IMG/VR virus record: IMGVR_UViG_2823670853_000002
Origin: a virus
Lineage: Duplodnaviria > Heunggongvirae > Uroviricota > Caudoviricetes
Direction: 5' to 3' (one strand)
Length of the DNA stretch: 64,000 nucleotides
This document shows, piece after piece, positions 4,118-49,644 of the stretch. Numbering within the stretch: the stretch's first letter is position 1; each line of letters starts with the position of its first letter. The position numbers were made by a program, and so were the translations under genes. Under the pieces are notes generated by a model, which made no database searches, was not told where the DNA came from, and saw only the letters and a program-made list of their open reading frames with translations.

Positions 4118-4507
4118 TTAAATGACCGGACAATCATCAAACTCCCCACTCCGGGCATCATTGATGACATGAGTGATCACACCAAAAACAGCATTACTGC
4201 CCGTGTATCCATCGTCATCTACTGGTAACGCCTCTTTCTTCCCGGTGCTTAAATCCTCCAGGTGCTGGCGCGGATACTTCCTGTATCTCTTTATGCGATA
4301 TTCACCCTCCATAGCGCACACAAGCAGAGAACCATCAACCGGAGTAAGCGAGGAATCAACCACCAGCAAAGCACCCTGCAATATTCCCTCACGGTGATGG
4401 CTGTCTGCCGCCCGCATGAAGTAGGTCGCTGATGGATGCCTGATTAGTTGCTGATCAAGAGAAATTCTGCTTTCAACATAATCCGCCGCAGGAGAAGGGA
4501 AGCCCAT
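4118..4507 (-). CDS. humD: UmuD'-like SOS mutagenesis protein HumD
   Basis: 129 aa lacking the LexA-type cleavage N-terminus; S24 peptidase-like core; LexA box directly upstream. Confidence 0.85.
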   Translation of the reverse strand: MGFPSPAADYVESRISLDQQLIRHPSATYFMRAADSHHREGILQGALLVVDSSLTPVDGSLLVCAMEGEYRIKRYRKYPRQHLEDLSTGKKEALPVDDDGYTGSNAVFGVITHVINDARSGEFDDCPVI

Positions 4508-4526
4508 AGCGTTTTCACCTCAATAA

Positions 4527-4546
4527 TACTGTTCATTTATACAGTA
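4527..4546. promoter_or_regulatory. LexA (SOS) box between divergent humD and lxr
   Basis: TACTGTTCATTTATACAGTA fits CTG-N10-CAG with TA-rich spacer. Confidence 0.8.
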
Positions 4547-4681
4547 TACATTAAAGAGACACCTTTGGTGCAAACGCGTTACGTACATCAACCACCGCTG
4601 ATGATTTTGTGCTCTTTGCTACTATTCATCACCAACGGATCAGCGTAACCTCGTTGCCAATCAGTTAATAAGGAATTAGCT

Positions 4682-5254
4682 ATGCCTAATCGCATTCCTC
4701 TCGATCCTGTATTGCCCAAAAATTTTGACTGCACTCCTAACGAGAAACGCTCTAAAGCTCAGCTGGACGCCTGGTGGGACCATCCCTATGGGGTTACAGA
4801 ACATGACGGGAAAATTGTTGTTTATTGTCTGAATGGTGGCGCGTGGGACCGTCCATCCGTGCTTGGTTTGGCAAATAACTATGATGAAGCCTGTGAACTT
4901 GCCGAAAGACAGCAGGCTAGATGGGTGAAAACACGGTCACAGCCGACATTCATGTTTTCAAAAGAACCGCCATTTATACTGGCGAGGATGCCGCAGCGAC
5001 CGGATCATCAACAAGAAATTGTTGCTGAATTTTCCTCAAGGGATGAGATGAATCTCTTCTCATTAAAGCAGGAAGAAAGGGAGCGCGTCGAAGTGTCTCC
5101 AACTCTCGACCACAACCGGATGAACCTGGCCCAACTCGCCTGGTACAGCAAAGAATTAGAGATGTCTATTGCCCGACTTGAAAACGAAAAAGCCGCTATC
5201 CAAGCCCAGCATGAAGCTGTCATTGCCAGGATACGAGAAGTTCAAAACGGTTAA
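4682..5254 (+). CDS. lxr: LexA-regulated protein, function unknown, coiled-coil C-terminus
   Basis: 190-aa ORF divergent from humD across the SOS box; P1 map position of lxr by recollection. Confidence 0.5.
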   Translation: MPNRIPLDPVLPKNFDCTPNEKRSKAQLDAWWDHPYGVTEHDGKIVVYCLNGGAWDRPSVLGLANNYDEACELAERQQARWVKTRSQPTFMFSKEPPFILARMPQRPDHQQEIVAEFSSRDEMNLFSLKQEERERVEVSPTLDHNRMNLAQLAWYSKELEMSIARLENEKAAIQAQHEAVIARIREVQNG

Positions 5255-32625: not shown

Positions 32626-33527
32626 TGCTTAGCCTCTCCACCAAGGGCATTTACCAGAGCATCAACCAGGCACGAAATTTCACTGGTCAACAGGAAGAAA
32701 TCTGCGTCCAGTCGCTGCGCAACATCTTCACTATCAATATCAGAGTTCTGCTCAAGCAATTCATCCGCAAATTTGACGCTGGTAAGGCTGAAGTTATGGT
32801 CCAGTGTAAATTTAATGCGGTTCTGCCAGTCGAGTGCCAACTTAGTGACGAGCTTGCCAGCTTCCAGGTGTGTGGAAATTTCATCGCTTCCCAAATCCTG
32901 CTTTTTCACTCGGGCAATACCGCCATCCTCAAGCACTGCCTTAAGTTCTGCCGCATCCCCCATTTGAAATCCCTGTGGAGCACTACCATCACGTACCCAG
33001 TCGGTCAGCGTTAATTCAATGGGATTTTCAACACTCAGGGGAACAACAGGAAGAGAACCCAGAGACTTACGCATAAGCGCGAGCATATCCTCTGCCTGCC
33101 GCGCGCTGGCATTGATATAGATACGTTTAGTTGAACCGTCGTAGATCGCCTGGATAACAGAAAACTTTGAAAAAGCCCGTGGCAGAAGAGAATGCAGAAC
33201 TTCGTCTTTCAGGGAGTCCTTCTCTGTTTTCTTAAGTTTACGCGCTTGTTCTTGCTCAAGTTTTTCAATTTTTTCTTGAATAGCTCGCTGGATAACCGGC
33301 GGGGGAAGAATTTTTGTTTCGCGCTTTGCTTCAACAAGGATAAAACCATTTCCATGCATAGCGATAACTTCGGAATTATCACCAAATGGCGATACAAAAC
33401 CGAACTTGGCCATATCCTGACTACCGCATGGCGTGAAAAGGATCATTTTCTTTTTATCTTCTAAGTCGGTCAGATCCGCCTCACGAGAAAGTTTATAAAT
33501 AGTAATGTTTTTCCAGTGCTTAAACAT
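32622..33527 (-). CDS. hrdC: RdgC-like recombination-associated protein
   Basis: Start taken at [16 protein letters not shown] (compare RdgC MLWFKNLMVYRL); 301 aa. Confidence 0.75.
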
Positions 33528-33804
33528 GTTGTAACCCTTGAATATCAACCACAGAAAGCTCGTCTTTGTAGAAAAAGGCCAGGTTGTGGCACCCCCTCGT
33601 TTGAGCGTATGAGCTGGGACCAATTTCGTTCTTCCAGACAAATGGCTTCAAATCCGTACGGCGAAGCATAAAAACGCGATTTGTTCCGCTCTGATTCCCA
33701 ATGAGGCAAAAGCCTTCTTTCACCTTGATAGCCTGCAAGTTGTCGAGTTCACCGCTGGTTACACGGCTATCGAACTCCTTGCGGCTTATTAGCTCCATCT
33801 GCAT
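33520..33804 (-). CDS. uhr: Hypothetical protein upstream of hrdC
   Basis: Start moved to [11 protein letters not shown] because the track start overlaps the promoter/operator; 94 aa. Confidence 0.45.
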
Positions 33805-33875
33805 CTGACGACTCCAAACAAATGCCCATTGAAGGGCGATGGCTGAATGGTACCGAAAACACGACATAAAAAACA

Positions 33876-33892
33876 ATATTTATTAGAGCAAT
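33876..33892 (-). promoter_or_regulatory. C1 operator match (uhr-hrdC-dmt operon), with a plus-strand TATAAT at 33895-33900
   Basis: Minus ATTGCTCTAATAAATAT (16/17). Confidence 0.6.
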
Positions 33893-33973
33893 TTTATAAT
33901 GAGTAAACGCCATGTAGACCACAAACAACCTAAGTTAAAATAACGAAAATCAGAGCAAATCATTGGTGATAAC

Positions 33974-34258
33974 GTGGCAAGTATTGCAACAAAAGACAGC
34001 ATTTGTTCGGGGCACGGAGGATTCCCATCCAGGCCTCCTGTAGAGAGTGAACCACTACTTAAAGTCAACGGAGTAGAAGTGTTAGTTGATGGTAAGCAAT
34101 ATGCACAGCATACCGATGGAAACAGTACGCACGGTGGGCAAGCTATATCAACCAGGGCATGGTTTACCGTCAATGGTAAAGGGGTCGTATGCGTTGGTGA
34201 CCCTGTTTCATGCGGCTCTACCGTAGCATCAGGAGACGGCCTGGTTCAGGTAAGTTAG
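33974..34258 (+). CDS. PAAR-like spike-tip protein
   Basis: 94 aa, GTG start; CSGHGGFPSRPPV...THGGQAIS...VGDPVSCGSTVASGDGLVQV fits small PAAR-repeat proteins. Confidence 0.6.
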   Translation: MASIATKDSICSGHGGFPSRPPVESEPLLKVNGVEVLVDGKQYAQHTDGNSTHGGQAISTRAWFTVNGKGVVCVGDPVSCGSTVASGDGLVQVS

Positions 34259-34266
34259 GAGATATC

Positions 34267-35037
34267 ATGCTGGAAAAAGACTACCAGTTATCCGCATATA
34301 AAAAATTGGCCGCAGCCGGTGGGATGAAAACACCTGGTGCCATAACATCAGCACGAAACAGTGCTAACACGGCAAAACAGCTTGCAGAAGAATTGACGGG
34401 ATTAATTCTGGATACAATTGTCTATCCCGACACTATTACCAGCTATGTTTCAACGATCAGAACAACCACAACCGGCTTAACGAACATTGGAGAACTGGCA
34501 ACTAAGCACGCGGACCTGTTGGCTGATTATGCAGATCTGTCAATGCTGCTTCAACTCGATATTGGTTGGGATGTTTACTGCCGTGCTAATGAGCGAGAAG
34601 TTTCAGAACTGCCGATCTCTATTGCCATTGGTGATGTGAATATTACTAAATCGCTTGAGGACGCTGTTAATGCGCTTAATACATCAAGTTTAGTCGCTGC
34701 TATGGGGGAGATTAACCAGACCCTTAACACTGGCTCAGGAAGCTCGTCAGGCTCTGGTTCAGGCGGCGGAACTGCCACTCCCCCACCAGCACTAACAGAA
34801 GAACAAATTGAATCTCTGAAAGTAGCAACTGAACAGTTTGGGGTTGTTTTCAACCAGACAACAGCGCCCACAACTGCGTTACAACAGCAGTATGAACGAG
34901 CGAATGAAAGCGCCAACGTAGCCATAACTGCTTATAACCATGCTATCGGTACCGCGCTTGCGGAAGCATCAGCAAAGAACCACGGCAGCCTGGCGGCTGC
35001 AAATCGTGGTGTGGCAGAATATGAGCTTTCAGAGTAA
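34267..35037 (+). CDS. Hypothetical protein with Gly/Ser linker, co-transcribed with PAAR gene
   Basis: AGGAG RBS before the ATG at 34267; 256 aa; central GSGSSSGSGSGGGTATPPP linker. Confidence 0.55.
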   Translation: MLEKDYQLSAYKKLAAAGGMKTPGAITSARNSANTAKQLAEELTGLILDTIVYPDTITSYVSTIRTTTTGLTNIGELATKHADLLADYADLSMLLQLDIGWDVYCRANEREVSELPISIAIGDVNITKSLEDAVNALNTSSLVAAMGEINQTLNTGSGSSSGSGSGGGTATPPPALTEEQIESLKVATEQFGVVFNQTTAPTTALQQQYERANESANVAITAYNHAIGTALAEASAKNHGSLAAANRGVAEYELSE

Positions 35038-35056
35038 CCATCCAGAATGAGTTCCC

Positions 35057-35329
35057 ATGTCACACAACCTGGAGCACCAGAAAGTCCACACCAGAATGGT
35101 GAAAGAGGTTCTGAAAGCCGTCGCCAGGGCCAATAATCACCCTTATCAGTCTGTATTTACAGACTTTATCGCCGGTCATCCCTCCTGTACGGTCTGTTTC
35201 TGGGAAACCTTCCACAAAATGTACCCGGATTCACCGTACGAATACGTCACGTTCTGCCATACCTGCCGTCGTTTTGATTTATACGAAACTGAAGCGGAGA
35301 TGAAGGCGGATGACCCGAAGTGGTGGTGA
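35057..35329 (+). CDS. Small Cys/His-rich ORF preceding and overlapping the transposase
   Basis: 90 aa; overlaps the tnp start by 20 nt, as for the small upstream ORFs of IS91-family elements. Confidence 0.4.
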   Translation: MSHNLEHQKVHTRMVKEVLKAVARANNHPYQSVFTDFIAGHPSCTVCFWETFHKMYPDSPYEYVTFCHTCRRFDLYETEAEMKADDPKWW

Positions 35330-36518
35330 TTTTCAGCCCCGACCGCTGAAACGCCTGTTCACAGCCAACCAGTGCTGGACATCCTTCCTGGATGCGGGCG
35401 GCCTGCGCGATATCGAGGTTGAGGCTGTCACAAAAATGCTGGCCTGCGGCACGCGGATACTGGGTGTGAAGGAATACAACTGCGATAAACCTGAGTGCCC
35501 CCACGTCAGATACGTCACTAACTCATGTGGCAGCCGTGCCTGCCCGTCCTGCGGAAAAAAGGCCACAGACCTGTGGATAGCGACACAGCTGAATCGTCTT
35601 CCTGACTGCGACTGGGTGCACCTGGTCTTCACCCTGCCGGACACGCTGTGGCCGGTGTTCGAAAGCAACCGCTGGCTGCTGAATGACGTGTGCCGTCTGG
35701 CGGTGGAGAATCTGCTGTATGCAGCCCGGAAACGGGGTCTGGAACCCGGTATCTTCTGCGCCATCCATACGTATGGCCGTCGTCTCAACTGGCATCCGCA
35801 TGTGCATGTGTCAGTGACCTGCGGAGGTCTGAATAAACACGGACACTGGAAAAAGCTGAGCTTCCTGAAAGACGCGATGCGTTCGCGGTGGATGTGGAAT
35901 ATGCGGCAGCTGCTTCTGAAAGCGTGGTCAGAAGGTCTGGCGATGCCGGAATCGTTGTCACATATCACGACGGAATCACAGTGGAGAAGCCTGGTGCTGA
36001 AAGCCGGCGGAAAATACTGGCATGTGTACATGTCGAAGAAGACAGCCGGAGGGCGGAATACGGCACGCTACCTGGGTCGTTATCTGAAGAAGCCACCAAT
36101 AGCGGCTTCCCGGCTGGCGCATTACAACGGAGGAGCGAGTCTGAGCTTCCGTTACCTGGACCACAAAACGGGAGAAACGGCGACGGAAACGCTGACACAG
36201 CGGGAGCTGGTCGCGAGGCTGAAACAGCACATCCCGGAGAAGTTTTTTAAGATGGTGAGATACTTCGGGTTCCTTGCCAACCGGGTGTGTGGAGAGAAGC
36301 TGCCGCAGGTGTACCGTGCTCTGGGGATGGATAAGCCGGAACCAGTGGCGAAAGTGTGCTATGCACAAATGGTGAAACAGTTCCTGAGTCGTGACCCGTT
36401 CGAATGCGTGCTGTGTGGCGGCCGGATGGTATACCGCCGGGCCATTGCGGGGCTGAATGTATCAGGGCTGAAGAAAAACGCGCGGGATATCAGTCTGCTG
36501 AGGTATATGCCGGCCTGA
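35310..36518 (+). CDS. IS91-family HUH/Y2 transposase
   Basis: N-terminal Zn-binding SCGSRACPSCGKK, HUH motif NWHPHVHV, Y2 motif ARYLGRYLKKPPI; 402 aa. Confidence 0.85.
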   Translation: MTRSGGDFQPRPLKRLFTANQCWTSFLDAGGLRDIEVEAVTKMLACGTRILGVKEYNCDKPECPHVRYVTNSCGSRACPSCGKKATDLWIATQLNRLPDCDWVHLVFTLPDTLWPVFESNRWLLNDVCRLAVENLLYAARKRGLEPGIFCAIHTYGRRLNWHPHVHVSVTCGGLNKHGHWKKLSFLKDAMRSRWMWNMRQLLLKAWSEGLAMPESLSHITTESQWRSLVLKAGGKYWHVYMSKKTAGGRNTARYLGRYLKKPPIAASRLAHYNGGASLSFRYLDHKTGETATETLTQRELVARLKQHIPEKFFKMVRYFGFLANRVCGEKLPQVYRALGMDKPEPVAKVCYAQMVKQFLSRDPFECVLCGGRMVYRRAIAGLNVSGLKKNARDISLLRYMPA

Positions 36519-36807
36519 CACAGGCTAAGTGTGCCCGGGAATCGGTGCAGGTATAAAAAACAGCCTGTTACGGTATAAAAATCGACCATGCAGAGAGAGA
36601 AACCACCGGAGTGGAGGGAAAAGCAGAAAGGCTCACGTGGCATAAGGCGTGGACAGCGGTATCGTCTGGTTTTTCAATTTCCTATACGTCAAGGCCAGCA
36701 CAGCCAGCGCAGTCGCCGCTTTGGTTCCTGATTCTGTTCTTGATGAATTAAACAAAGCGGCACAGTAACAAAGGACTTCATTGATAATTTTTCTTCAGGA
36801 GGAAGAC

Positions 36808-37230
36808 ATGTCATTCTTTTCTACGTTAAAAACAGCTTTGTCTTTGAAGGAGAAACTTGCTGCTACTGGTGTTCTTGTTCTGATTTGCGCACTTGTTGGT
36901 GCTGGGTTTGTATGGGAACGTCATCAGCTAAAGCAAGCCATGGAGAAAATTGGCAGTCTTGATCAGGCTGTTAAGGAACGTGATAAGTCAATAATGGATC
37001 TTAACCAGACCATTGAGACGATGAACAAAGCAGAGCAACATTTTCACAGCCAGGAAGTGAAAAATGAATCAGAACAAGCCAAATATGCTGACAGGCAAAT
37101 GGAACGAAAAGCTGAAGTTCAGAAACAACTGGTTGCGGCGGGTAATGTTCGCCAGCGCATTCCTGCTGACACTCAGCGGTTGCTCCGGGAGTCGATCAGC
37201 GAATTTAACGCCGACGCCGATAAAGGTTAA
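36808..37230 (+). CDS. ppfA: i-spanin-like (Rz-like) type II membrane protein
   Basis: ATG 36808 with GGAGG RBS; N-terminal TM (ATGVLVLICALVGAGFVW) then a periplasmic coiled coil. Confidence 0.55.
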   Translation: MSFFSTLKTALSLKEKLAATGVLVLICALVGAGFVWERHQLKQAMEKIGSLDQAVKERDKSIMDLNQTIETMNKAEQHFHSQEVKNESEQAKYADRQMERKAEVQKQLVAAGNVRQRIPADTQRLLRESISEFNADADKG

Positions 37231-37396
37231 CCACCCTGCCCCCAAAAGTGCATTTATGTGCAGGATGCCAGAGTTTAGCAGTGAATATTTTGATGATCTG
37301 CCAGCCTATATCCTTGATACAGAAACGATGCTGATGGGGATTAACAGGAAGAATCGCAACGTTAATGATTACAACCGCGCTATCAGCGGTAACTAA
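37064..37396 (+). CDS. mlp: o-spanin-like lipoprotein, overlapped in +1 frame with ppfA
   Basis: Lipobox LLTLSGC; starts inside ppfA and extends beyond it (overlapped spanin architecture). Confidence 0.55.
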   Translation: MNQNKPNMLTGKWNEKLKFRNNWLRRVMFASAFLLTLSGCSGSRSANLTPTPIKVNHPAPKSAFMCRMPEFSSEYFDDLPAYILDTETMLMGINRKNRNVNDYNRAISGN

Positions 37397-37407
37397 AAGG
37401 GATTTTT

Positions 37408-37800
37408 ATGTCTGATAAAGTAACAGTAAAGCAAACTATCAACAAAGCGACTTCAATCTACAAAATTGAGCACATCACTGTTGGCAAGCCAGGATCTGAA
37501 CAATACCGTCATGCTTTCGAGCTTGCCGATCAGCTTGGTTTAAAACACCCGGATTGCATCGAGCATGTATTTCCGACCTATGCTGATGAGCAATGTACTC
37601 ATGTTCTTACCGAAGAGGATTTTTTCAGCACTGAAGAACGAGAAGGCGTTGATCGCTGCATTGGTGTGATTTGCTCTTCAGTGAGTTATGAGTTATTCCC
37701 TAATGTCCATGAAAATGGTGGTATTGGATACCAATTCCTGTACGAAGGCGATGAGCTTAAATGTTATGAACATGGCCTTCTCATCGAAAGCGTAGAATAA
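37408..37800 (+). CDS. Hypothetical protein adjacent to oriR
   Basis: 130-aa ORF followed by a hairpin terminator. Confidence 0.55.
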   Translation: MSDKVTVKQTINKATSIYKIEHITVGKPGSEQYRHAFELADQLGLKHPDCIEHVFPTYADEQCTHVLTEEDFFSTEEREGVDRCIGVICSSVSYELFPNVHENGGIGYQFLYEGDELKCYEHGLLIESVE

Positions 37801-37813
37801 TACCCTTCCTTCT

Positions 37814-37834
37814 AACCGGCTATGTTGGCCGGTT
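37814..37834 (+). terminator. Hairpin terminator
   Basis: AACCGGCTATGTTGGCCGGTT followed by TATT. Confidence 0.55.
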
Positions 37835-37842
37835 TATTCAAC

Positions 37843-38054
37843 TTATCCACAGCATAGATCCAATAAACAGATCCTAAAGAGAACCTAGTAAGATCCAAAG
37901 AAGATCCCGGATCGCTGTAAGCCGCGTCATTTCTGGCCTGAAATGGGATCAACATTGACTATACGCGATTTTATGTTGACTGTGCACGATTTATTGTTGA
38001 CTGCACGCGATTTATTGTTGACTATACGCGACAGAAACATTGACTGTACGCGAT
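37843..38054 (+). other. Plasmid origin oriR: DnaA box, five GATC sites, five 21-bp-spaced iterons (incC-like)
   Basis: TTATCCACA at 37843-37851. GATC at 37857, 37870, 37892, 37903, 37910. Iterons TTGACT(A/G)(T/C)(A/G)C(A/G)CGA(T/C) at 37955, 37976, 37997, 38018, 38040. Confidence 0.8.
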
Positions 38055-38134
38055 TTTAGAGTCTGAATATTCACAGCTGTTGATAACAGCCATCCAAATT
38101 GACGTCAGGCCGCGCCACACATGGAGAAACCACG

Positions 38135-39019
38135 ATGCCGGAAGAAAGTAAAGGCTTCCTTAGCGTTGAAGAAGTTGCAGGAAATACAGGAGAAATCCAC
38201 AGCCTGAAGCCCAATAACAACAGCACTATACAACCCATCGCTTTGTTGCGTTTAGGTGTGTTTGTGCCAACCTTAAAATCTACCAATGTGGCGCTACGTC
38301 GCGGATCGTCAGTTACAACAAACACAACGAACGCAACTGAAGAACTATCAAGCCTCAAAATTGTTGAGCAGGAAGGCTATGAGGGAATTGAAATTCATGG
38401 TCCACGCCTGGATATGGATACTGATTTTAAGGTGTGGGTGGGCATAACCTCCGCGTTGTTTGACTATGCACCTGATGATGACGGTATAATCACCCTGCCA
38501 TTCTCCGAGTTTGCCGATCGATGCGGCTATCCACGTAAGCGCCTTTCAAAGGCGTTCCGTAAAAGTATTGATGACTCTCTGACACGCATTCAGCAGACAG
38601 TTGTCAAATTCCGCTTCCCGGCGGCAAAAGGTCATCTCAATAACATTAACGTCAACTTGTTGGCATATAGCAGCCTGAATACCGAGCTTGATGTTATCGA
38701 GATCCAGCCGCAGAAACAGCTATCTGAACTTTACTATGTTGACTATAAGCGAATCCTGAAGCTGAAGATGCTGGATAAACTAGGGCGCAAAGAGACGGCC
38801 AAGGTACTGTATACATTCTTTGAGGCTCTACCCGCCAACCCGGCACCTGTCAGCATTGAGCGCCTTAGGGCGAGGCTTAATCTCAAATCATCCGTTAGCG
38901 TGCAAAATAGCGTTATCAGAAAAGCCATGAAAGATTTAGAAGCTATTGAATATCTTAAATTTTCAGAGATAAAAAACGGCAGGAAAATCGGCTTCCAGAT
39001 CCATAAGCGCAATCCATAA
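38135..39019 (+). CDS. repA: Iteron-binding replication initiator RepA (P1/RepFIB family, diverged from my recollection of P1 RepA)
   Basis: ATG 38135 with GGAGA RBS. IQPIALLRLGVFVP, GPRLDMDTDFKVWVG, and YTFFEALPANPAPVSIERLRARL parallel P1 RepA blocks, but overall identity is clearly partial. Confidence 0.8.
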   Translation: MPEESKGFLSVEEVAGNTGEIHSLKPNNNSTIQPIALLRLGVFVPTLKSTNVALRRGSSVTTNTTNATEELSSLKIVEQEGYEGIEIHGPRLDMDTDFKVWVGITSALFDYAPDDDGIITLPFSEFADRCGYPRKRLSKAFRKSIDDSLTRIQQTVVKFRFPAAKGHLNNINVNLLAYSSLNTELDVIEIQPQKQLSELYYVDYKRILKLKMLDKLGRKETAKVLYTFFEALPANPAPVSIERLRARLNLKSSVSVQNSVIRKAMKDLEAIEYLKFSEIKNGRKIGFQIHKRNP

Positions 39020-39021
39020 TA

Positions 39022-39276
39022 TTGACTATATGCGATAGCGAGAAGTTGACTATAGGCGACATTCGTTGACGCTGGTGGATTTTTGCTGGCGTCAATATTC
39101 TGCAAGTCTCTATTGAGATGGCTTTTAGGGCCATTTCATCGCGTATAGTCAACGTTTCTCCCGACAATATCTTACATAGTCGATCTTTGGTGGAGTTAAA
39201 TCGACTACAGTCAACTTTTGACTGTAGTCACATCGCGCATAGTCAACTATTCACATTAACCTTCGCGCATAGTCAA
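39022..39276. repeat. incA-like copy-control iteron cluster (8-9 copies, both orientations)
   Basis: Plus-orientation TTGACTATATGCGAT 39022 and TTGACTATAGGCGAC 39046. Reverse ATCGCGTATAGTCAA 39138. TCGACTACAGTCAA 39201, TTGACTGTAGTCACA 39218, ATCGCGCATAGTCAA 39232, TTCGCGCATAGTCAA 39262, plus degenerate copies. Confidence 0.8.
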
Positions 39277-39311
39277 CATTTGCGCGGTTCTCATCAAGCA
39301 GTGGTATTGAT

Positions 39312-40121
39312 ATGCAAGAAGAAAAACAATACTACCTCTACGTTCTGGTGCCGGAGAACGGAGATACTTTTAAAATCGGCATTTCATGTGGTCCATTGGC
39401 ACGGTTTAAAGGGCTACAAGTGAGTCCCGATTTTGCGCTTTCACGGGTCTATCGTGGTACGCGTTTGGCAATGGTTAATCTTGAGCGAGCTTTACACGCA
39501 ACCTTTTTCCCCTGGAATGCGCCGTGGGAGAAAAGCGCCGGTGGCGGGCATACTGAATGGTTTACACGAGAGTGTCTTGATAAGGTTTTGGCTCATATCG
39601 AATATCTAAATGATATGTGGGGAGGGATTCTCGAGCGCATTAAGTCGAATGATTTACTTCAGCGTCCAGTAGATGCTGCTTGCTCTTTCGAAAAAGAGCT
39701 GGATGTTACTTCTATCGTGACTTTCAAAGATGACGCAGGAATGAGGGACGTGGCTTATGTCTCCATATCTGGCTATGAACCGGACGCGATCCGCGCTCAA
39801 TGTGAATTGCTGAAAGCAATGTTTATGCTTCGGACTAAATATCCCTGGGAGACAGGGCGGGTGTGCTTCCCTATGGAAGAGTTAACCGCCACCATTGATT
39901 CCCAGCTTTACCACGATAATCCAGAGAAGTTTTTTAGCCTTTTAGCCGGTAATGGGCTTAACTGTGTGTCCGGGCTGGGGCGAAGTAGAATCCAACATGC
40001 CTCGCTCTTCGGTCCCTTCTTTTACGATCGACACGGGTACTTTGAGGCTGAACTTCCGGCGCTTACGCGTGCTATAGATACTATCGATTTCGAACGATTA
40101 TTCGCTGCTCTTAGCAAATAA
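39312..40121 (+). CDS. T5orf172 / GIY-YIG-like N-terminal domain protein with unknown C-terminal domain
   Basis: YYLYVLVPENGDTFKIGIS..GPLARFKGLQ...LERALHATF...GGHTEWF matches the T5orf172 pattern (hydrophobic strand, KIG, R..L, E..LH, EWF); 269 aa; own terminator. Confidence 0.55.
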   Translation: MQEEKQYYLYVLVPENGDTFKIGISCGPLARFKGLQVSPDFALSRVYRGTRLAMVNLERALHATFFPWNAPWEKSAGGGHTEWFTRECLDKVLAHIEYLNDMWGGILERIKSNDLLQRPVDAACSFEKELDVTSIVTFKDDAGMRDVAYVSISGYEPDAIRAQCELLKAMFMLRTKYPWETGRVCFPMEELTATIDSQLYHDNPEKFFSLLAGNGLNCVSGLGRSRIQHASLFGPFFYDRHGYFEAELPALTRAIDTIDFERLFAALSK

Positions 40122-40128
40122 CACTGAT

Positions 40129-40149
40129 GCCCCTGAACGGGGCTTTTTT
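40129..40149 (+). terminator. Rho-independent terminator
   Basis: GCCCCTGAACGGGGC followed by TTTTTT. Confidence 0.8.
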
Positions 40150-40236
40150 GTGCCCTCCTTGTAACTCTCAATCGTGCAAAATGAACCAAACATGCAGAGA
40201 ATGCTATGTACAAGCATCTGTGCATACATTATTATT

Positions 40237-40276
40237 TTATGCAGCATTTTTAAGTAAATTCAAAAATACAGCATAA
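40237..40276. promoter_or_regulatory. parOP: large imperfect palindrome at the par promoter
   Basis: TTATGCAGCATTTTTAAGTAAATTCAAAAATACAGCATAA, ~40-bp inverted repeat 14 nt upstream of parA. Confidence 0.65.
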
Positions 40277-40289
40277 AGGATGACTTTCG

Positions 40290-41486
40290 ATGAGTGATTC
40301 CAGCCAGCTTCACAAGGTTGCTCAAAGAGCAAATAGAATGCTCAATGTTCTGACTGAACAAGTACAGTTGCAAAAGGATGAGCTACACGCGAACGAGTTT
40401 TACCAGGTCTATGCGAAAGCGGCACTGGCAAAATTGCCTCTACTGACTCGAGCGAACGTTGACTATGCCGTAAGTGAAATGGAAGAAAAGGGCTATGTTT
40501 TCGATAAACGCCCTGCTGGCTCTTCAATGAAATATGCGATGTCAATTCAGAACATCATTGACATATATGAACATCGCGGAGTGCCAAAATACCGGGATCG
40601 CTACAGCGAAGCGTATGTGATTTTCATCTCCAATCTTAAAGGCGGTGTGTCAAAAACTGTATCGACGGTTTCTCTGGCGCATGCAATGCGTGCCCACCCT
40701 CATCTTCTGATGGAAGATTTAAGGATTCTGGTTATTGACCTTGATCCGCAATCTTCAGCAACGATGTTTTTAAGCCATAAACACTCTATTGGTATCGTAA
40801 ACGCAACATCTGCACAGGCTATGTTGCAGAATGTAAGCCGTGAAGAGCTGTTAGAGGAGTTTATTGTTCCTTCTGTTGTACCTGGGGTTGACGTTATGCC
40901 TGCGTCGATTGACGATGCCTTTATTGCATCCGATTGGAGAGAGCTGTGCAATGAGCATCTACCGGGTCAGAACATCCATGCTGTCCTGAAAGAAAATGTG
41001 ATTGATAAGCTGAAGAGCGATTATGACTTTATCCTCGTTGATAGTGGTCCTCACCTTGACGCCTTCCTGAAAAATGCTTTGGCCTCGGCCAATATACTGT
41101 TTACACCTCTGCCGCCAGCAACTGTCGATTTCCACTCATCGCTTAAATACGTTGCCCGCCTTCCTGAGTTGGTGAAACTCATTTCGGATGAAGGCTGCGA
41201 GTGCCAGCTTGCGACTAACATTGGTTTTATGTCCAAGTTGAGTAACAAGGCAGATCATAAGTATTGCCATAGCTTGGCTAAAGAAGTGTTCGGTGGGGAT
41301 ATGCTCGATGTCGTCCTCCCTCGCCTTGACGGTTTTGAACGCTGCGGCGAGTCTTTTGACACTGTTATTTCAGCTAACCCGGCAACGTATGTTGGTAGTG
41401 CTGATGCATTGAAGAACGCGCGAATTGCTGCGGAAGATTTTGCTAAAGCAGTTTTTGACCGTATTGAATTTATCAGATCTAACTGA
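40290..41486 (+). CDS. parA: Partition ATPase ParA (type Ia)
   Basis: 398 aa; deviant Walker A NLKGGVSKT; N-terminal HTH region; sequence matches my recollection of P1 ParA. Confidence 0.95.
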   Translation: MSDSSQLHKVAQRANRMLNVLTEQVQLQKDELHANEFYQVYAKAALAKLPLLTRANVDYAVSEMEEKGYVFDKRPAGSSMKYAMSIQNIIDIYEHRGVPKYRDRYSEAYVIFISNLKGGVSKTVSTVSLAHAMRAHPHLLMEDLRILVIDLDPQSSATMFLSHKHSIGIVNATSAQAMLQNVSREELLEEFIVPSVVPGVDVMPASIDDAFIASDWRELCNEHLPGQNIHAVLKENVIDKLKSDYDFILVDSGPHLDAFLKNALASANILFTPLPPATVDFHSSLKYVARLPELVKLISDEGCECQLATNIGFMSKLSNKADHKYCHSLAKEVFGGDMLDVVLPRLDGFERCGESFDTVISANPATYVGSADALKNARIAAEDFAKAVFDRIEFIRSN

Positions 41487-41502
41487 GGAGTAAGAAACCC
41501 CC

Positions 41503-42504
41503 ATGTCAAAGAAAAACAGACCAACAATTGGGCGAACCCTTAATCCTTCAATATTAAGCGGATTTGATAGTTCTTCAGCCTCTGGCGATCGAGTCGAGCA
41601 GGTATTCAAGTTATCAACTGGTCGCCAGGCCACATTTATTGAAGAGGTAATACCTCCGAACCAGGTAGAAAGCGATACCTTTGTTGATCAGCATAACAAC
41701 GGGCGTGACCAGGCATCTCTTACGCCAAAATCATTAAAAAGTATCCGAAGCACTATTAAGCATCAGCAATTTTACCCTGCAATAGGTGTTAGACGGGCTA
41801 CAGGGAAAATTGAAATTTTGGATGGTTCCCGGCGTCGAGCTTCTGCCATCTTAGAGAACGTAGGGTTGCGGGTTTTAGTCACGGACCAGGAGATCAGCGT
41901 TCAGGAAGCGCAAAATTTAGCGAAAGACGTTCAGACAGCATTGCAGCACAGCATTCGAGAAATAGGTCTGCGTTTGATGCGAATGAAAAATGATGGGATG
42001 AGTCAGAAGGATATTGCAGCCAAAGAAGGGCTGTCTCAGGCGAAGGTCACGCGTGCTCTCCAGGCAGCGAGTGCTCCGGAAGAATTAGTCGCCCTTTTCC
42101 CTGTGCAGTCGGAATTAACCTTTTCGGACTACAAAACACTTTGTGCTGTTGGCGACGAAATGGGGAACAAGAATTTAGAGTTTGATCAGCTTATTCAAAA
42201 CATATCCCCGGAAATAAACGACATCTTATCCATTGAAGAAATGGCCGAAGATGAAGTTAAAAATAAAATCCTGCGCTTGATAACAAAGGAAGCCTCACTA
42301 CTCACGGATAAAGGTTCTAAAGATAAGTCCGTAGTTACTGAATTATGGAAATTTGAGGACAAGGATCGCTTTGCAAGGAAGCGCGTGAAAGGCCGTGCAT
42401 TTTCTTATGAGTTTAATCGACTTTCAAAAGAGCTACAGGAAGAACTCGACAGGATGATTGGGCATATCCTTAGAAAGAGCCTCGATAAAAAGCCGAAGCC
42501 TTAA
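41503..42504 (+). CDS. parB: Centromere-binding protein ParB
   Basis: 333 aa; ParB box ILDGSRRRAS and HTH region; followed by parS. Confidence 0.95.
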   Translation: MSKKNRPTIGRTLNPSILSGFDSSSASGDRVEQVFKLSTGRQATFIEEVIPPNQVESDTFVDQHNNGRDQASLTPKSLKSIRSTIKHQQFYPAIGVRRATGKIEILDGSRRRASAILENVGLRVLVTDQEISVQEAQNLAKDVQTALQHSIREIGLRLMRMKNDGMSQKDIAAKEGLSQAKVTRALQAASAPEELVALFPVQSELTFSDYKTLCAVGDEMGNKNLEFDQLIQNISPEINDILSIEEMAEDEVKNKILRLITKEASLLTDKGSKDKSVVTELWKFEDKDRFARKRVKGRAFSYEFNRLSKELQEELDRMIGHILRKSLDKKPKP

Positions 42505-47539: not shown

Positions 47540-48049
47540 ATGGGGCACAATAACACTAAGGGAAACCGTAAATTTATTAAGGGCCGCTATACTGCCAACG
47601 CGGCCAAAGGCGAACGACTGGTATCTTCTGAATTCCAGCTCACTTTTGCAGGCCATGAAGATATCAGCGTACTGGTTCGCACGTCGCAAATCCCTGAAAT
47701 GACTCGCGAGGATGTGGAGGACTATGGTCCGAATGGTGTGAAGTTCAACCAGCACGGACCAATTCGAAACTCTGGGGAAATCCAGGTCCAGTGCGTGGAG
47801 ACTATCGAAGGCGATATTCTTCAGTTCATCAAGGATCGCATTGCGGCGAAGGACTATGTTGATATCACGATGGCTGCGACCCCTGAATCCAAATCTTCCG
47901 GGGTTAACGCTGTGACAAAAGCTGCTACAACAATTGAAATGTTGGACTGCAAAATCTACAGTGATGCAATCGACTTTAGTACCGAAGATGTGACTGCCGC
48001 TGTGCGCCCGTCACTTCGTATCGTCTACAACTGGATTGAGTGGGATTAA
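47540..48049 (+). CDS. Late structural protein (tail/baseplate, unassigned)
   Basis: 169-aa ORF, last in operon before the terminator. Confidence 0.5.
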   Translation: MGHNNTKGNRKFIKGRYTANAAKGERLVSSEFQLTFAGHEDISVLVRTSQIPEMTREDVEDYGPNGVKFNQHGPIRNSGEIQVQCVETIEGDILQFIKDRIAAKDYVDITMAATPESKSSGVNAVTKAATTIEMLDCKIYSDAIDFSTEDVTAAVRPSLRIVYNWIEWD

Positions 48050-48068
48050 GAGTCATCCCTTGTATTTT

Positions 48069-48095
48069 AAAGCTCCTTCGGGAGCTTTTTTATTT
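48069..48095. terminator. Bidirectional rho-independent terminator
   Basis: AAAGCTCCTTCGGGAGCTTTTTTATTT between the convergent late operon and hok. Confidence 0.8.
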
Positions 48096-48165
48096 GGAGA
48101 GGAAAGGGTGCATTGAGGATACCTGACACACGAAGAGTGACGGGGATCTCTCCCCGCCAGGTCTC

Positions 48166-48321
48166 TTACCTTTCAGATTCGTAGGCTGTGAAGACAGTGA
48201 CCTCCGTCTGGCCGGTTCGGATTCGTACCTCGCAGAGGTCTTTCCTCGTTACCAGTGCCGTCACAATGACGGTTAAACAGATGACGATCAGAGCGATTAA
48301 CATCGCTTTTTGCTGCTTCAT
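48166..48321 (-). CDS. hok: Hok/Gef-family type I toxin (51 aa; absent from ORF track)
   Basis: Hand translation MKQQKAMLIALIVICLTVIVTALVTRKDLCEVRIRTGQTEVTVFTAYESER. Compare R1 Hok ...[46 protein letters not shown] RBS. Confidence 0.85.
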   Translation of the reverse strand: MKQQKAMLIALIVICLTVIVTALVTRKDLCEVRIRTGQTEVTVFTAYESER

Positions 48322-48379
48322 AGCCTGCTTCTCCTTGACCTTTTGGTCGGTAAGAGGCTAATCTACGTATGCTAAGCAT
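48173..48379 (-). CDS. mok: mok-like overlapping reading frame
   Basis: 68-aa ORF starting upstream of hok and overlapping it in another frame, as in hok/mok/sok loci. Confidence 0.55.
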   Translation of the reverse strand: MLSIRRLASYRPKGQGEAGYEAAKSDVNRSDRHLFNRHCDGTGNEERPLRGTNPNRPDGGHCLHSLRI

Positions 48380-48399
48380 AGATATGGCCTCAGATTAAT

Positions 48400-48480
48400 G
48401 TTAAGCGTCTTGCAGGACGCGTAATGTTATCTGGGGCTTTCTTCTATCTGCTTTTCGGGTAATGCCTGAAGCAGATAGCC
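48400..48480 (+). ncRNA. sok: Sok-like antisense RNA region (ends approximate)
   Basis: Plus-strand hairpin CTATCTGCTT...AAGCAGATAG antisense to the hok mRNA leader. hok mRNA 5' GGTGCTTGAGGCTATCTGC resembles the R1 tac element, and a CCTCAATGCACC fbi-like complement lies 3' of hok. Confidence 0.35.
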
Positions 48481-48502
48481 TCAAGCACCCGCAACGATTG
48501 TA

Positions 48503-48748
48503 TCAATGTCTGGCTTTTTTTCTATAGAAATCACCAGGAAGGGTGAATATCCACATCAGAAGAAATGTTGCAGCAAACATGATCCCTAATGGCCAGACCG
48601 CGCCAAAGAAAATCCATACTAAGATCTCCTCTGCTCGTTCTTTGCGGTCGATATCGACAAGCATTTTTCGGCTGATCATGTATACACAGAAGCCAATACA
48701 AACATATCCTGCAAAAGCGATCGCTAACTGTAAAAAATCAGATTGCAT
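48503..48748 (-). CDS. Hypothetical membrane protein (3 TM) downstream of repL
   Basis: Start taken at MQSDFLQLAIAFAGYV; hydrophobic segments throughout. Confidence 0.45.
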   Translation of the reverse strand: MQSDFLQLAIAFAGYVCIGFCVYMISRKMLVDIDRKERAEEILVWIFFGAVWPLGIMFAATFLLMWIFTLPGDFYRKKARH

Positions 48749-48798
48749 CTCCGACCTCAAACTGAAAACGCCAGGTGACTCCAGATTAGAGCAATCTA

Positions 48799-49644
48799 TC
48801 ACCCTCTGAATCCTGCCGGTATACCCCATTGTTCGTTATCTTTATTTTTGGCTAAAACCGCATTAAGAGCTTCGTTTACCGTCATGCAATGCGGCAGATT
48901 ATCGAAGTTTGATATCCCGCCAATATCAGGAGAACGCTTGTTCTTCAGGTAAGCATATTTCCGCGCTGTCGCCTCTACTTTCTGCTTGAACTCATGTTTT
49001 TGAGCGCGTTTTTTGGATAACCGCAGATTGTCAGCCTTTGCTTTTGCCTCAGCGATCCATGAAGTCAGTTTTTTGAGGCTGCTCGTTCCGGCACCGCCGG
49101 AAACTGATCTTTTTGTTTTTTTAATTTGTGACTTCTTATTCTTTATTGCCACGTCATCCTGACAGGGGGAGGGGGTATCATTTTGACATGGGGGTGTGGA
49201 TAAAAAATCAAATAAAGCCAATGTCTTAGCGAGAACAGCTTTAACCTTGGTTGCGGCTGAAGAGATCTTTAATTTGCTTTCAATTAGCGCATTTTTGGCT
49301 TGTTGAGCAAAGGCTAAAAAGGATGGTGTAAACCGGTACAGGTTAGCGCGGCGTTCACGGTGATCGCCGATAACAATCTCTACAGACAGGATTCCTTTGT
49401 TTACAGCTTCACGGAATGCACGAACGACGGTTGATTGGCTATAACCAGTTTCTGCCGCGATCAGGCGGTGAGGCTTGTGAATGAAGTATTCACAGGTTGT
49501 TGCCGCGAGATTTGCACATTGCGATAGGATATGCCCGGCGCTACGGGATAGACCGGAGTGTGTTACAAAGCAGGCCAATTCATAGCCAGAAAAAGTAAAA
49601 TCGCTCATCGTTATACAGCTCAGGAAAGTGACTTTAGCCAGCAT
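48799..49644 (-). CDS. repL: Lytic replication initiator RepL (contains oriL)
   Basis: 281 aa, downstream of kilA under the same operator; wHTH-like TGYSQSTVVRAFREAVNKGIL; P1 synteny. Confidence 0.8.
   Translation of the reverse strand: MLAKVTFLSCITMSDFTFSGYELACFVTHSGLSRSAGHILSQCANLAATTCEYFIHKPHRLIAAETGYSQSTVVRAFREAVNKGILSVEIVIGDHRERRANLYRFTPSFLAFAQQAKNALIESKLKISSAATKVKAVLAKTLALFDFLSTPPCQNDTPSPCQDDVAIKNKKSQIKKTKRSVSGGAGTSSLKKLTSWIAEAKAKADNLRLSKKRAQKHEFKQKVEATARKYAYLKNKRSPDIGGISNFDNLPHCMTVNEALNAVLAKNKDNEQWGIPAGFRG

What the first reader, a model, noticed from the sequence alone, without database searches (positions are those of the whole stretch)
39312..40149. T5orf172/GIY-YIG-like gene with its own terminator inserted between incA and the par promoter
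In P1 as I recall it, the incA iterons are followed closely by parOP-parA. Here an 810-bp ORF plus a strong terminator occupies that junction.

- Its N-terminal ~100 aa carry the T5orf172 signature: YLYVL, FKIGIS, R..L, LERALH, GHTEWF. This is a GIY-YIG-superfamily nuclease-like fold seen in phage homing-type genes and in several anti-phage systems.
- The C-terminal ~165 aa have no motif I recognise.
- Its ATG lies only 36 bp after the last iteron, so RepA occupancy of incA could influence its expression.

It is a candidate accessory module (exclusion, defence or selfish nuclease) riding in the plasmid-maintenance core.
Basis: partly seen in the sequence, partly recalled or inferred. Interest (0 to 1): 0.55.

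Follow-up and report, generated by a model that had tools for sequence, protein, structure and literature searches.

The report
Nuclease gene riding a swappable replicon cassette
A non-essential, often broken gene for a probable site-specific DNA-cutting enzyme sits at the right edge of the exchangeable plasmid-replication cassette of P1-like phage-plasmids, where it most likely behaves as a selfish homing-type nuclease, not a maintenance gene.

Summary

The "insertion into P1 incA-parA" reading is only partly right. This window is an SJ46/p0111-type P1-like phage-plasmid. Its whole iteron-repA-iteron block (37938-40187) replaces P1's IncY replicon, and the nuclease gene is the right end of that cassette.

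Divergent alleles (25-44% identity) occupy the same slot, 20-35 bp after the last control iteron. They occur in P1-like elements with three iteron types, including an IncY-like one. Canonical P1 and P7-par IncY elements have no gene there.

The gene is dispensable. It carries three independent nonsense alleles (one in phage SJ46), IS insertions and frameshifts. Its nonsynonymous/synonymous ratio is about 0.3, against 0.01-0.06 for repA, parA and parB.

Best reading: a free-standing homing-endonuclease-like nuclease at the rep|par module joint. The main rival is an Odn-like nuclease aimed at rival replicons. No biochemistry is available.

The parts
37938..40187 (+). Swapped replicon cassette (origin iterons, repA, control iterons, nuclease gene, terminator). 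It replaces P1's incC-repA-incA block.
   Evidence: Homology to P1 (L001) runs up to window 37937 (91.6% identity) and resumes at 40188 (98.5%). The same kind of breakpoints separates L003 from L052.
37953..38053 (+). Five origin iterons, 21-22 bp spacing, core TTGACTATACGCGA
   Evidence: the repeat finder family D1
38135..39019 (+). repA, a Rep3/RepFIB-like initiator (294 aa from the ATG at 38135; the mechanical ORF starts at a TTG at 38099)
   Evidence: Pfam Rep3_C and Rep3_N. It is 44-49% identical to RepFIB initiators, and about 398 PLSDB records hold it at >=80%. It is 42% identical to P1 RepA. PGAP annotates an 885-nt gene in L051.
39020..39059 (+). Two direct control iterons immediately after the repA stop
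   Evidence: the repeat finder D1/D3
39139..39281 (-). Four control iterons in inverted orientation (an incA-like cluster). The last one ends 30-36 nt before the nuclease ATG.
   Evidence: the repeat finder D4 and inverted pairs I1-I12
39312..40121 (+). Gene for a 269-aa two-domain protein: T5orf172/GIY-YIG nuclease plus a winged-helix domain
   Evidence: ORF. phrog_2876 over the full length. PGAP name 'GIY-YIG nuclease family protein'. AF2 model with mean pLDDT 81.
39312..39626 (+). N-terminal nuclease domain (aa 1-105)
39663..40118 (+). C-terminal domain (aa ~118-269) after a low-confidence linker (aa 123-126). Predicted winged helix, weakly Rep-WH1-like.
40129..40152 (+). Intrinsic-terminator-like hairpin plus T-run, 8 nt after the stop codon
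   Evidence: A comparable terminator follows the L054 allele but not the L003 or L052 alleles.
40207..40235 (+). par promoter (the P1 Ppar equivalent), the first conserved P1 backbone element after the cassette
   Evidence: Promoter-like site TGTACA-17-TATTAT. It aligns with the annotated P1 Ppar at L001 4017-4045.
40290..42504 (+). parA (40290-41486) and parB (41503-42504), both 100% identical in protein to P1's

Best explanation
The gene encodes a modular site-specific DNA endonuclease of the free-standing homing-endonuclease type. It has an N-terminal T5orf172/GIY-YIG catalytic domain, a short flexible linker and a C-terminal winged-helix DNA-binding domain.

It is not part of the replication or partition machinery. 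It is a selfish passenger at the joint between the replicon module and the par module of P1-like phage-plasmids.

Inferred mechanism: when two P1-like genomes meet in one cell, the enzyme cuts the genome that lacks it, or that carries a different allele, near this joint. Repair from the nuclease-carrying genome copies in the gene. The sequence to its left is a non-homologous replicon, so the conversion tract must run to the next shared sequence, which is the DnaA-box/AT-rich part of oriR. The whole iteron-repA-iteron cassette is therefore co-converted. Once fixed in a cassette lineage the gene is no longer selected, and it decays.

It is probably transcribed by read-through from the RepA-autoregulated repA promoter across the control iterons. 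Its own terminator then insulates Ppar.

Shown here: the domain composition, conservation of catalytic-type residues, position, linkage to the cassette, dispensability and relaxed selection. Inferred: nuclease activity, the target, homing and the transcription pattern.
For: (1) Nuclease domain.
- Pfam T5orf172 is above its cut-off, and phrog_681 'endonuclease' matches at 9e-9.
- Y10, R31, E58, H62 and E82 are invariant in 20 relatives.
- E58 aligns with Odn E180. The Odn authors predicted E180A to abolish catalysis and used that mutant as their catalytically inactive control (PMC8263062).

(2) I-TevI-like modular layout. The order is catalytic domain, low-pLDDT linker (aa 123-126), then a separate winged-helix domain.

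(3) Presence/absence polymorphism at one locus.
- The gene is present in p0111-type elements (401 plasmids), in L003, in L052/L053 (IncY-like RepA, 83% to P1) and in L054.
- It is absent from P1 and from IncY elements with P7-type par.

(4) It lies at a recombination joint.
- Cassette breakpoints fall at the first origin iteron and 40-85 bp after the gene's stop.
- ParA and ParB are 100% identical between the window and P1, and 100%/98% between L003 and L052, while RepA is 41-42% identical. The cassette has therefore moved between backbones at least twice.

(5) The pattern expected of a homing endonuclease that decays once fixed.
- In the window-type allele sampled in 45 loci there are 35 nonsynonymous, 3 nonsense and 31 synonymous variants.
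- The per-site ratio is 0.33, against 0.02 for repA, 0.01 for parA and 0.06 for parB.
- Independent nonsense alleles W68*, S112* and Q228* exist, the last in phage SJ46.
- There is an IS200/IS605 insertion with deletion, an IS1 truncation and frameshifted copies.

(6) Rapid divergence. The protein is 44% identical between the window and L003, while the flanking RepA is 84% and ParA 89% identical.

(7) Family behaviour. More distant T5orf172 relatives sit in varied phage and island contexts, one near an intein-bearing ribonucleotide reductase. The ICP1 T5orf172 family is regarded as putative homing endonucleases (PMC8263062).

(8) Restricted to phage-plasmids. F-type RepFIB plasmids, which have related RepA proteins, carry no detectable homologue.
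Against: No cleavage activity, target site or homing event has been demonstrated, here or in the papers I could search.

No 'empty' p0111-type cassette was found among about 400 plasmids. The gene-less alleles available (P1, P7-par IncY) belong to another replicon type, so the classic filled-versus-empty comparison within one allele class is missing.

The ratio of 0.33 is below 1, so some purifying selection persists. That fits any weakly selected accessory function as well as a homing endonuclease.

The gene is co-inherited with the replicon over long divergence: four alleles, all in exactly the same slot. That could equally mean a replicon-linked function.

The right flank (Ppar-parA) is 98.5% identical between the window and P1. 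If the target lay there, it is unclear how the carrier protects itself.
Confidence: 0.45

Rival explanations
1. A nuclease aimed at rival replicons, an analogue of ICP1 Odn. The C-terminal Rep-WH1-like domain would bind the iterons or origin of a competing P1-like replicon, or dock on its RepA. The T5orf172 domain would then cut. That would destroy or displace a co-resident element that shares the same par system and immunity but has another replicon type.
Confidence: 0.2
2. A domesticated DNA-binding or RepA-binding regulator. The protein would modulate replication control or par expression, either by binding near the control iterons or Ppar, or by pairing its WH1-like domain with RepA. Nuclease activity would be irrelevant.
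For: The position between the control iterons and Ppar is fixed in four divergent elements. Co-transcription with repA is possible, since no intervening promoter or terminator was found. In Rep initiators WH1 is the dimerisation domain (established knowledge; structures 1hkq and 2z9o appear among the hits). There is a precedent in PLE CapR, a T5orf172 protein that acts as a repressor (listed).
Against: The catalytic-type residues are invariant across all alleles and distant relatives, which is not expected after domestication. The gene is dispensable in many natural elements, SJ46 among them. Canonical P1/P7 replicons and F-type RepFIB replicons work without it. Its ratio is more than five times that of repA, parA and parB.
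Confidence: 0.1
3. An anti-phage defence or exclusion effector carried as cargo by the phage-plasmid.
For: From my own knowledge, not checked here, T5orf172/GIY-YIG domains occur in some defence systems. Phage-plasmids exchange many defence systems (PMC10879196). Fast evolution and presence/absence variation fit arms-race genes.
Against: No PADLOC model matches even at E <= 1. The gene stands alone with no partner genes: its flanks are repA and parA in every case. It is tied to one fixed slot instead of the known variable cargo regions. It carries many loss-of-function alleles.
Confidence: 0.1
4. A remnant with no present function, hitch-hiking with the essential replicon.
For: The ratio is 0.33 and there are at least five independent inactivating events in about 50 sampled copies.
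Against: The ratio is clearly below 1. Most copies are intact over 269 codons. Four alleles at 25-44% identity all keep the open frame, the two-domain layout and the catalytic residues. That requires long-term selection.
Confidence: 0.1

Closest known systems
Free-standing GIY-YIG homing endonucleases (I-TevI / Seg type), and the putative T5orf172 homing endonucleases of phage ICP1
   Same: The catalytic domain is N-terminal and belongs to the GIY-YIG superfamily, followed by a linker and a separate C-terminal DNA-binding domain. The gene lies between conserved modules. It shows presence/absence polymorphism among close relatives, rapid divergence and recurrent decay.
   Different: The DNA-binding domain is a winged helix with no sequence relatives, not the zinc-finger/helix-turn-helix module of I-TevI. 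The gene sits in a plasmid replicon cassette of a phage-plasmid, not in a lytic-phage gene cluster or an intron. Cleavage and homing are undemonstrated.
Odn (ICP1 gp88), the origin-directed nuclease (PMC8263062)
   Same: A T5orf172 nuclease domain is combined with a domain resembling that of an iteron-binding replication initiator. The Glu mutated in the inactive Odn* (E180) aligns with E58 here. Both are embedded in conflicts between mobile elements over replicons.
SLX1 / UvrC-type GIY-YIG nuclease domains
   Different: Sequence identity is only 11-18%. There is no RING/PHD partner domain and no Slx4-like partner. The T5orf172-specific motifs (E..LH, EWF) are present.
RepFIB / Rep_3 iteron replicons (F and P307 RepFIB; P1 oriR-repA-incA)
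   Same: The surrounding cassette has the classical layout: origin iterons, an autoregulated repA and a downstream control-iteron cluster in mixed orientation.
   Different: The classical RepFIB and P1/P7 IncY replicons carry no gene between the control iterons and the next module. The nuclease gene is an add-on found only in P1-like phage-plasmid cassettes.

Membership tests
T5orf172 (PF10544) / GIY-YIG superfamily | Match to the family profile above the curated threshold | tested here: met
   PF10544 at 27.4 bits against a cut-off of 20, E = 5.1e-6, aa 8-85. The related MUG113 model is below its cut-off (15.3 against 22.3).
T5orf172 (PF10544) / GIY-YIG superfamily | GIY-YIG alpha/beta fold | tested here: met
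T5orf172 (PF10544) / GIY-YIG superfamily | Conserved catalytic-type residues (Tyr of the first strand, Arg, Glu) | tested here: met
   Y10, K21, G23, R31, E58, H62, E82, W83 and F84 are invariant in 20 relatives and in the four slot alleles plus Odn. E58 aligns with Odn E180.
T5orf172 (PF10544) / GIY-YIG superfamily | Endonuclease activity | not testable with these tools
   Needs purified protein and E58A/E82A/R31A controls.
Homing endonuclease gene (free-standing) | Presence/absence polymorphism at a fixed locus between otherwise homologous genomes | tested here: met
   The window and P1 share flanks at 91.6% and 98.5% identity and identical ParA/ParB, and differ in the cassette that carries the gene. 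An IncY-like replicon occurs with the gene (L052) and without it (P1, L061, L062).
Homing endonuclease gene (free-standing) | An empty site in the same allele class, differing only by the gene | tested here: not met
   No p0111-type cassette without the gene was found: 401 records carry the gene against about 398 with the RepA. The P1 spacer holds no remnant of the gene.
Homing endonuclease gene (free-standing) | Cleavage of the gene-less allele, followed by gene conversion | not testable with these tools
   Requires in vitro cleavage mapping and mixed-infection crosses.
Homing endonuclease gene (free-standing) | Relaxed selection and degeneration after fixation | tested here: met
   Ratio 0.33 against 0.01-0.06 in the neighbouring genes. 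Three nonsense alleles, IS insertions and frameshifts.
Odn-like origin-directed nuclease | DNA-binding domain homologous to a replication initiator's DNA-binding domain | tested here: inconclusive
Odn-like origin-directed nuclease | Iteron-dependent cleavage of a replication origin | not testable with these tools
   One indirect argument against recognition of its own iterons: C-terminal divergence does not follow iteron type.
Known anti-phage defence systems (PADLOC-DB v2) | Match to any defence-protein model | tested here: not met
   No families at E <= 1 for either the window protein or P0004.
Core plasmid-maintenance gene of the replicon | Indispensable, and under purifying selection like repA and parAB | tested here: not met
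   Nonsense alleles occur in 8 of 45 loci, including the phage SJ46 record, alongside intact repA, parA and parB. The ratio is 5- to 30-fold higher than in the neighbours.

The most novel reading that the evidence does not exclude
The nuclease acts as a drive for whole-replicon exchange. It would cut gene-less or rival P1-like genomes at or near the rep|par joint, or at their iterons through its Rep-WH1-like domain. That would force co-conversion or elimination of the rival replicon. If so, it would explain why P1-like phage-plasmids fall into discrete IncY and p0111 replicon types on near-identical backbones.
Probability: 0.2. Interest if true: 0.8.

Novelty: new variant of a known kind. Interest (0 to 1): 0.5.

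Why it matters
P1-like phage-plasmids are important carriers of resistance genes. They are typed by two replicons, IncY and p0111. [quoted passage not shown] No paper in the searchable library links GIY-YIG to P1-like elements.

This work shows four things about that gene:
- It is a conserved but dispensable two-domain nuclease.
- It sits at the edge of the exchangeable replicon cassette.
- It occurs with three iteron specificities.
- It carries an initiator-like winged helix.

That gives a concrete, testable candidate for what promotes replicon switching and competition between co-infecting phage-plasmids. If the homing or origin-directed reading is right, it would extend the Odn principle, a nuclease that borrows initiator-like DNA recognition, from the Vibrio ICP1/PLE conflict to enterobacterial plasmid biology. 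If it is wrong, the gene is an ordinary decaying selfish nuclease.

Tried and rejected
- Sequence relatives of the C-terminal half. Exhaustive HMMER over 1.84 billion representatives found only P0004 and fragments. Pfam at E <= 10 gave nothing. A PDB sequence search gave nothing meaningful. NCBIfam gave nothing.
- A chimeric origin from RepA, as in Odn. BLASTP against the element's own RepA and against P1 RepA was negative, and so was hhalign against a five-member RepA alignment. Rejected at sequence level.
- Defence system. PADLOC was negative.
- A remnant of the gene in P1's 190-bp incA-Ppar spacer. tblastn and blastn-short found only chance matches, so loss cannot be told from never-present.
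- The module outside P1-like elements. Large or conjugative plasmids that carry the gene still show P1 backbone genes around it. Genome and viral contig scans returned only near-identical copies. The P0010-type allele is absent from PLSDB and INPHARED.
- A dedicated sigma-70 promoter between the iterons and the ATG. None passed the scan. My manual inspection found only 3/6-type hexamers, not conserved in L003.
- A known RNA family in 37500-40500: none.
- Compositional anomaly: none, GC 0.47-0.49 against 0.42-0.48 in the flanks.
- Context of more distant T5orf172 relatives (P0081-P0083). They are not next to rep or par genes, so the replicon association is specific to the P1-like subfamily.

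Full report
**Observation**

Eight nucleotides after its stop lies a GC-only 5-bp hairpin followed by T6 (40129-40143 plus tail). It folds at -11.9 kcal/mol, z = -2.85 against shuffles.

The region carries a classical iteron replicon:
- five direct repeats at 21-bp spacing upstream of repA (37953-38053);
- two direct copies just after the repA stop (39020-39059);
- four inverted copies (39139-39281), the last ending 30-36 nt before the ATG.

**What the surroundings are**

The window is 99% identical over this stretch to Salmonella phage SJ46, Escherichia phages RCS47, JL22 and phi456, and other P1-like phage-plasmids. Similarity to canonical P1 begins only at window ~40188, about 19 bp before the position of P1's Ppar -35 box.

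On the left, similarity to P1 (91.6%) stops at 37937, which is the start of the origin iterons. The block 37938-40187 therefore replaces P1's incC-repA-incA block.

The RepA here is a Rep3/RepFIB-like initiator (Pfam Rep3_C and Rep3_N). It is 42% identical to P1 RepA and 44-49% identical to F-type RepFIB initiators. The literature calls this replicon type 'p0111' as opposed to IncY. [quoted passage not shown]

In canonical P1 the incA-to-Ppar interval is about 190 bp and holds no gene. In IncY elements with P7-type par it is 116 bp and also empty. The gene, however, is not an insertion into P1's replicon. It is the right-hand end of a different, swapped-in replicon cassette.

**Distribution and linkage**

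- tblastn finds the protein in 401 PLSDB plasmids, all at >=90% identity, and in 12 phage records.
- The cognate RepA (>=80% identity) is in about 398 plasmids. Linkage is therefore essentially complete.
- In large or conjugative plasmids the gene is still flanked by P1 backbone genes.
- F-type RepFIB plasmids have no detectable homologue.

An exhaustive HMMER scan of 1.84 billion representative proteins found one full-length relative, P0004 (45%). It also found many proteins that match only the N-terminal ~100 residues. Two of those, P0010 and P0011, align weakly over their full length (25-27%).

Their genomic contexts are the key result:

| Locus | Source | Allele | Position |
|---|---|---|---|
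| L003 | 95.7-kb contig | P0004 | between repA and parA |
| L052/L053 | 90-93-kb Salmonella contigs | P0010 | between repA and parA |
| L054 | faecal metagenome | P0011 | between repA and parA |

All three are P1-like elements. In each, the gene starts about 20-26 bp after the last inverted control iteron.

These elements carry three different iteron types:
- TTGACTATACGCGA in the window and L003;
- P1-type ATGTGTGCTGGAGGG in L052, whose RepA is 83% identical to P1's;
- GGCTACTGTATGCTAC in L054.

The partition genes do not follow the replicon. ParA and ParB are 100% identical between the window and P1, and 100%/98% between L003 and L052, while RepA is 41-42% identical in both pairs. The L003/L052 breakpoints again fall at the first origin iteron and 63-85 bp after the nuclease stop. 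The unit [origin iterons - repA - control iterons - nuclease gene] has thus been exchanged between backbones at least twice, and the nuclease gene marks its right edge.

**The protein**

*N-terminal domain*
- Pfam T5orf172 is above its gathering score, and PHROG 'endonuclease' phrog_681 matches at 9e-9.
- Y10, K21, G23, R31, E58, L61, H62, E82, W83 and F84 are invariant across 20 relatives.
- Aligned with ICP1 Odn, E58 (in LERALH) corresponds to Odn E180. The E180A mutant is that paper's catalytically inactive control (PMC8263062).

*Linker and C-terminal domain*
- Residues 123-126 have pLDDT below 50.
- The C-terminal ~150 residues were modelled alone at pLDDT 76.5 and pTM 0.77. They form a winged-helix-type alpha/beta domain.
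- Foldseek against BFVD puts a COG5527 'initiation of plasmid replication' protein first (E = 7.9e-3, prob 0.99).
- At sequence level there is no relation to the neighbouring RepA family or to P1 RepA.

I therefore treat 'winged-helix DNA-binding-like domain' as well supported. 'Derived from a Rep WH1 domain' is a weak lead.

*Relationships among the four alleles*
- The C-terminal halves are related through intermediates. Shuffle z-scores are 23 (window/L003), 14 (L052/L054) and 6.6 (L003/L052).
- They evolve about twice as fast as the N-terminal halves: 17-31% identity against 34-64%.
- Their divergence does not follow iteron type.

**Selection and dispensability**

Across 45 loci with the window-type allele:

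| Gene | Synonymous | Nonsynonymous | Nonsense | Per-site ratio |
|---|---|---|---|---|
| nuclease gene | 31 | 35 | 3 | 0.33 |
| repA | 48 | 4 | 0 | 0.02 |
| parA | 50 | 2 | 0 | 0.01 |
| parB | 50 | 11 | 0 | 0.06 |

Independent inactivating events include:
- W68* in one locus, S112* in five loci and Q228* in phage SJ46 and one IMG/VR copy. The SJ46 stop explains its shorter annotated CDS.
- An IS200/IS605 insertion with an internal deletion (L046).
- An IS1 truncation (L050).
- Frameshifted copies (H55 and ON470615).

The gene is therefore not needed for maintenance, yet it is not evolving neutrally.

**Expression (inference)**

No promoter-like site lies on the + strand between the repA stop and the ATG, and no terminator-like site lies between repA and the gene. 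The short leader keeps only an AGTGGT element 8-10 nt before the ATG in both the window and L003.

Read-through from the RepA-autoregulated repA promoter across the control iterons is the simplest model. The terminator would then shield Ppar. A terminator follows the gene in the window and in L054, but not clearly in L003 or L052.

**Interpretation**

The features that together fit a free-standing homing-type endonuclease best are:
- the I-TevI-like modular layout;
- intact catalytic residues;
- a fixed intergenic slot at a recombination joint;
- presence/absence among close relatives;
- fast divergence;
- recurrent decay;
- varied phage and island contexts for the wider family.

Because the left flank is a non-homologous replicon, any conversion event started near this gene would have to carry the whole replicon cassette. 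That matches the observed cassette boundaries (inference). I give this reading 0.45.

The main rival (0.2) is an Odn-like nuclease aimed at rival replicons. The initiator-like winged helix and the position beside the iterons suggest it. The missing sequence relation to any RepA, the lack of co-variation with iteron type and the frequency of natural knock-outs weaken it.

The other readings are less likely:
- a regulator or RepA partner (0.1);
- a defence effector (0.1; PADLOC negative);
- pure junk (0.1; contradicted by four open, two-domain alleles at 25-44% identity).

**Novelty**

The gene is annotated ('GIY-YIG nuclease family protein' by PGAP; phrog_2876, unknown function), and JL22 workers noticed it as an unknown gene. 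Its existence is not new.

Four points I did not find in the searchable literature:
- It is the conserved right edge of exchangeable replicon cassettes of three specificities.
- It has a two-domain architecture with an initiator-like winged helix.
- It is dispensable and under relaxed selection.
- It parallels Odn.

I class it as a new variant of a known kind (T5orf172 homing-type nucleases) and rate interest at about 0.5.

Noticed in passing
window 35310-36518 (and roughly 35000-36750): A 402-aa IS91-family transposase (Pfam Y2_Tnp at 2.8e-57 plus Zn_Tnp_IS91). It lies in an insertion of about 1.7 kb in the upfC/upfB region that none of the P1-like phage records share: megablast covers only 56% of 33500-37400, in two pieces.
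   Followed up: partly
window 39330-39332 (codon 7 of the nuclease gene): The window has Tyr at residue 7, where 43 of 44 other sampled copies have His. The significance of this private variant is unknown.
   Followed up: no
L002 (phage SJ46, NC_031129) 4324-5133: The SJ46 reference copy carries a Q228* nonsense codon, which explains its shorter annotated CDS (4324..5007).
   Followed up: yes
OR339795.1 (phage phi456) 39982-40788: The same gene is annotated there as 'terminase small subunit'. This is almost certainly a misannotation.
   Followed up: no
L046 6294-8058; L050 about 4291-5000: An IS200/IS605 element (TnpA plus TnpB) replaces codons ~99-174 of the gene in one IMG/VR contig. An IS1 copy truncates the replicon and the gene in the 231-kb plasmid pLR-46_1.
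   Followed up: yes
L061 and L062 (IncY plasmids NZ_CP062890, NZ_CP080083) 1145-1261; P1 L001 3826: In IncY elements with P7-type par (ParA 401 aa, ParB 321 aa), similarity to P1 ends exactly at the last incA iteron. The rep|par boundary is therefore a general recombination joint, even without the nuclease gene. L054 also has the 401/321-aa par type.
   Followed up: partly
window 39025-39052 and 37958-37986, minus strand: Promoter-like hexamers are embedded in the iterons on the minus strand. The TTGACT in the iteron core resembles a -35 box, so the inverted control iterons could point promoter-like elements back toward repA.
   Followed up: no
PMC6906374, Table 1 (pSvP1 48,004-49,273): That paper reports an IncY-type P1-like plasmid with '2 orfs inserted between repA and parA'. 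This suggests other cargo can occupy the same slot. I did not fetch the sequence.
   Followed up: no
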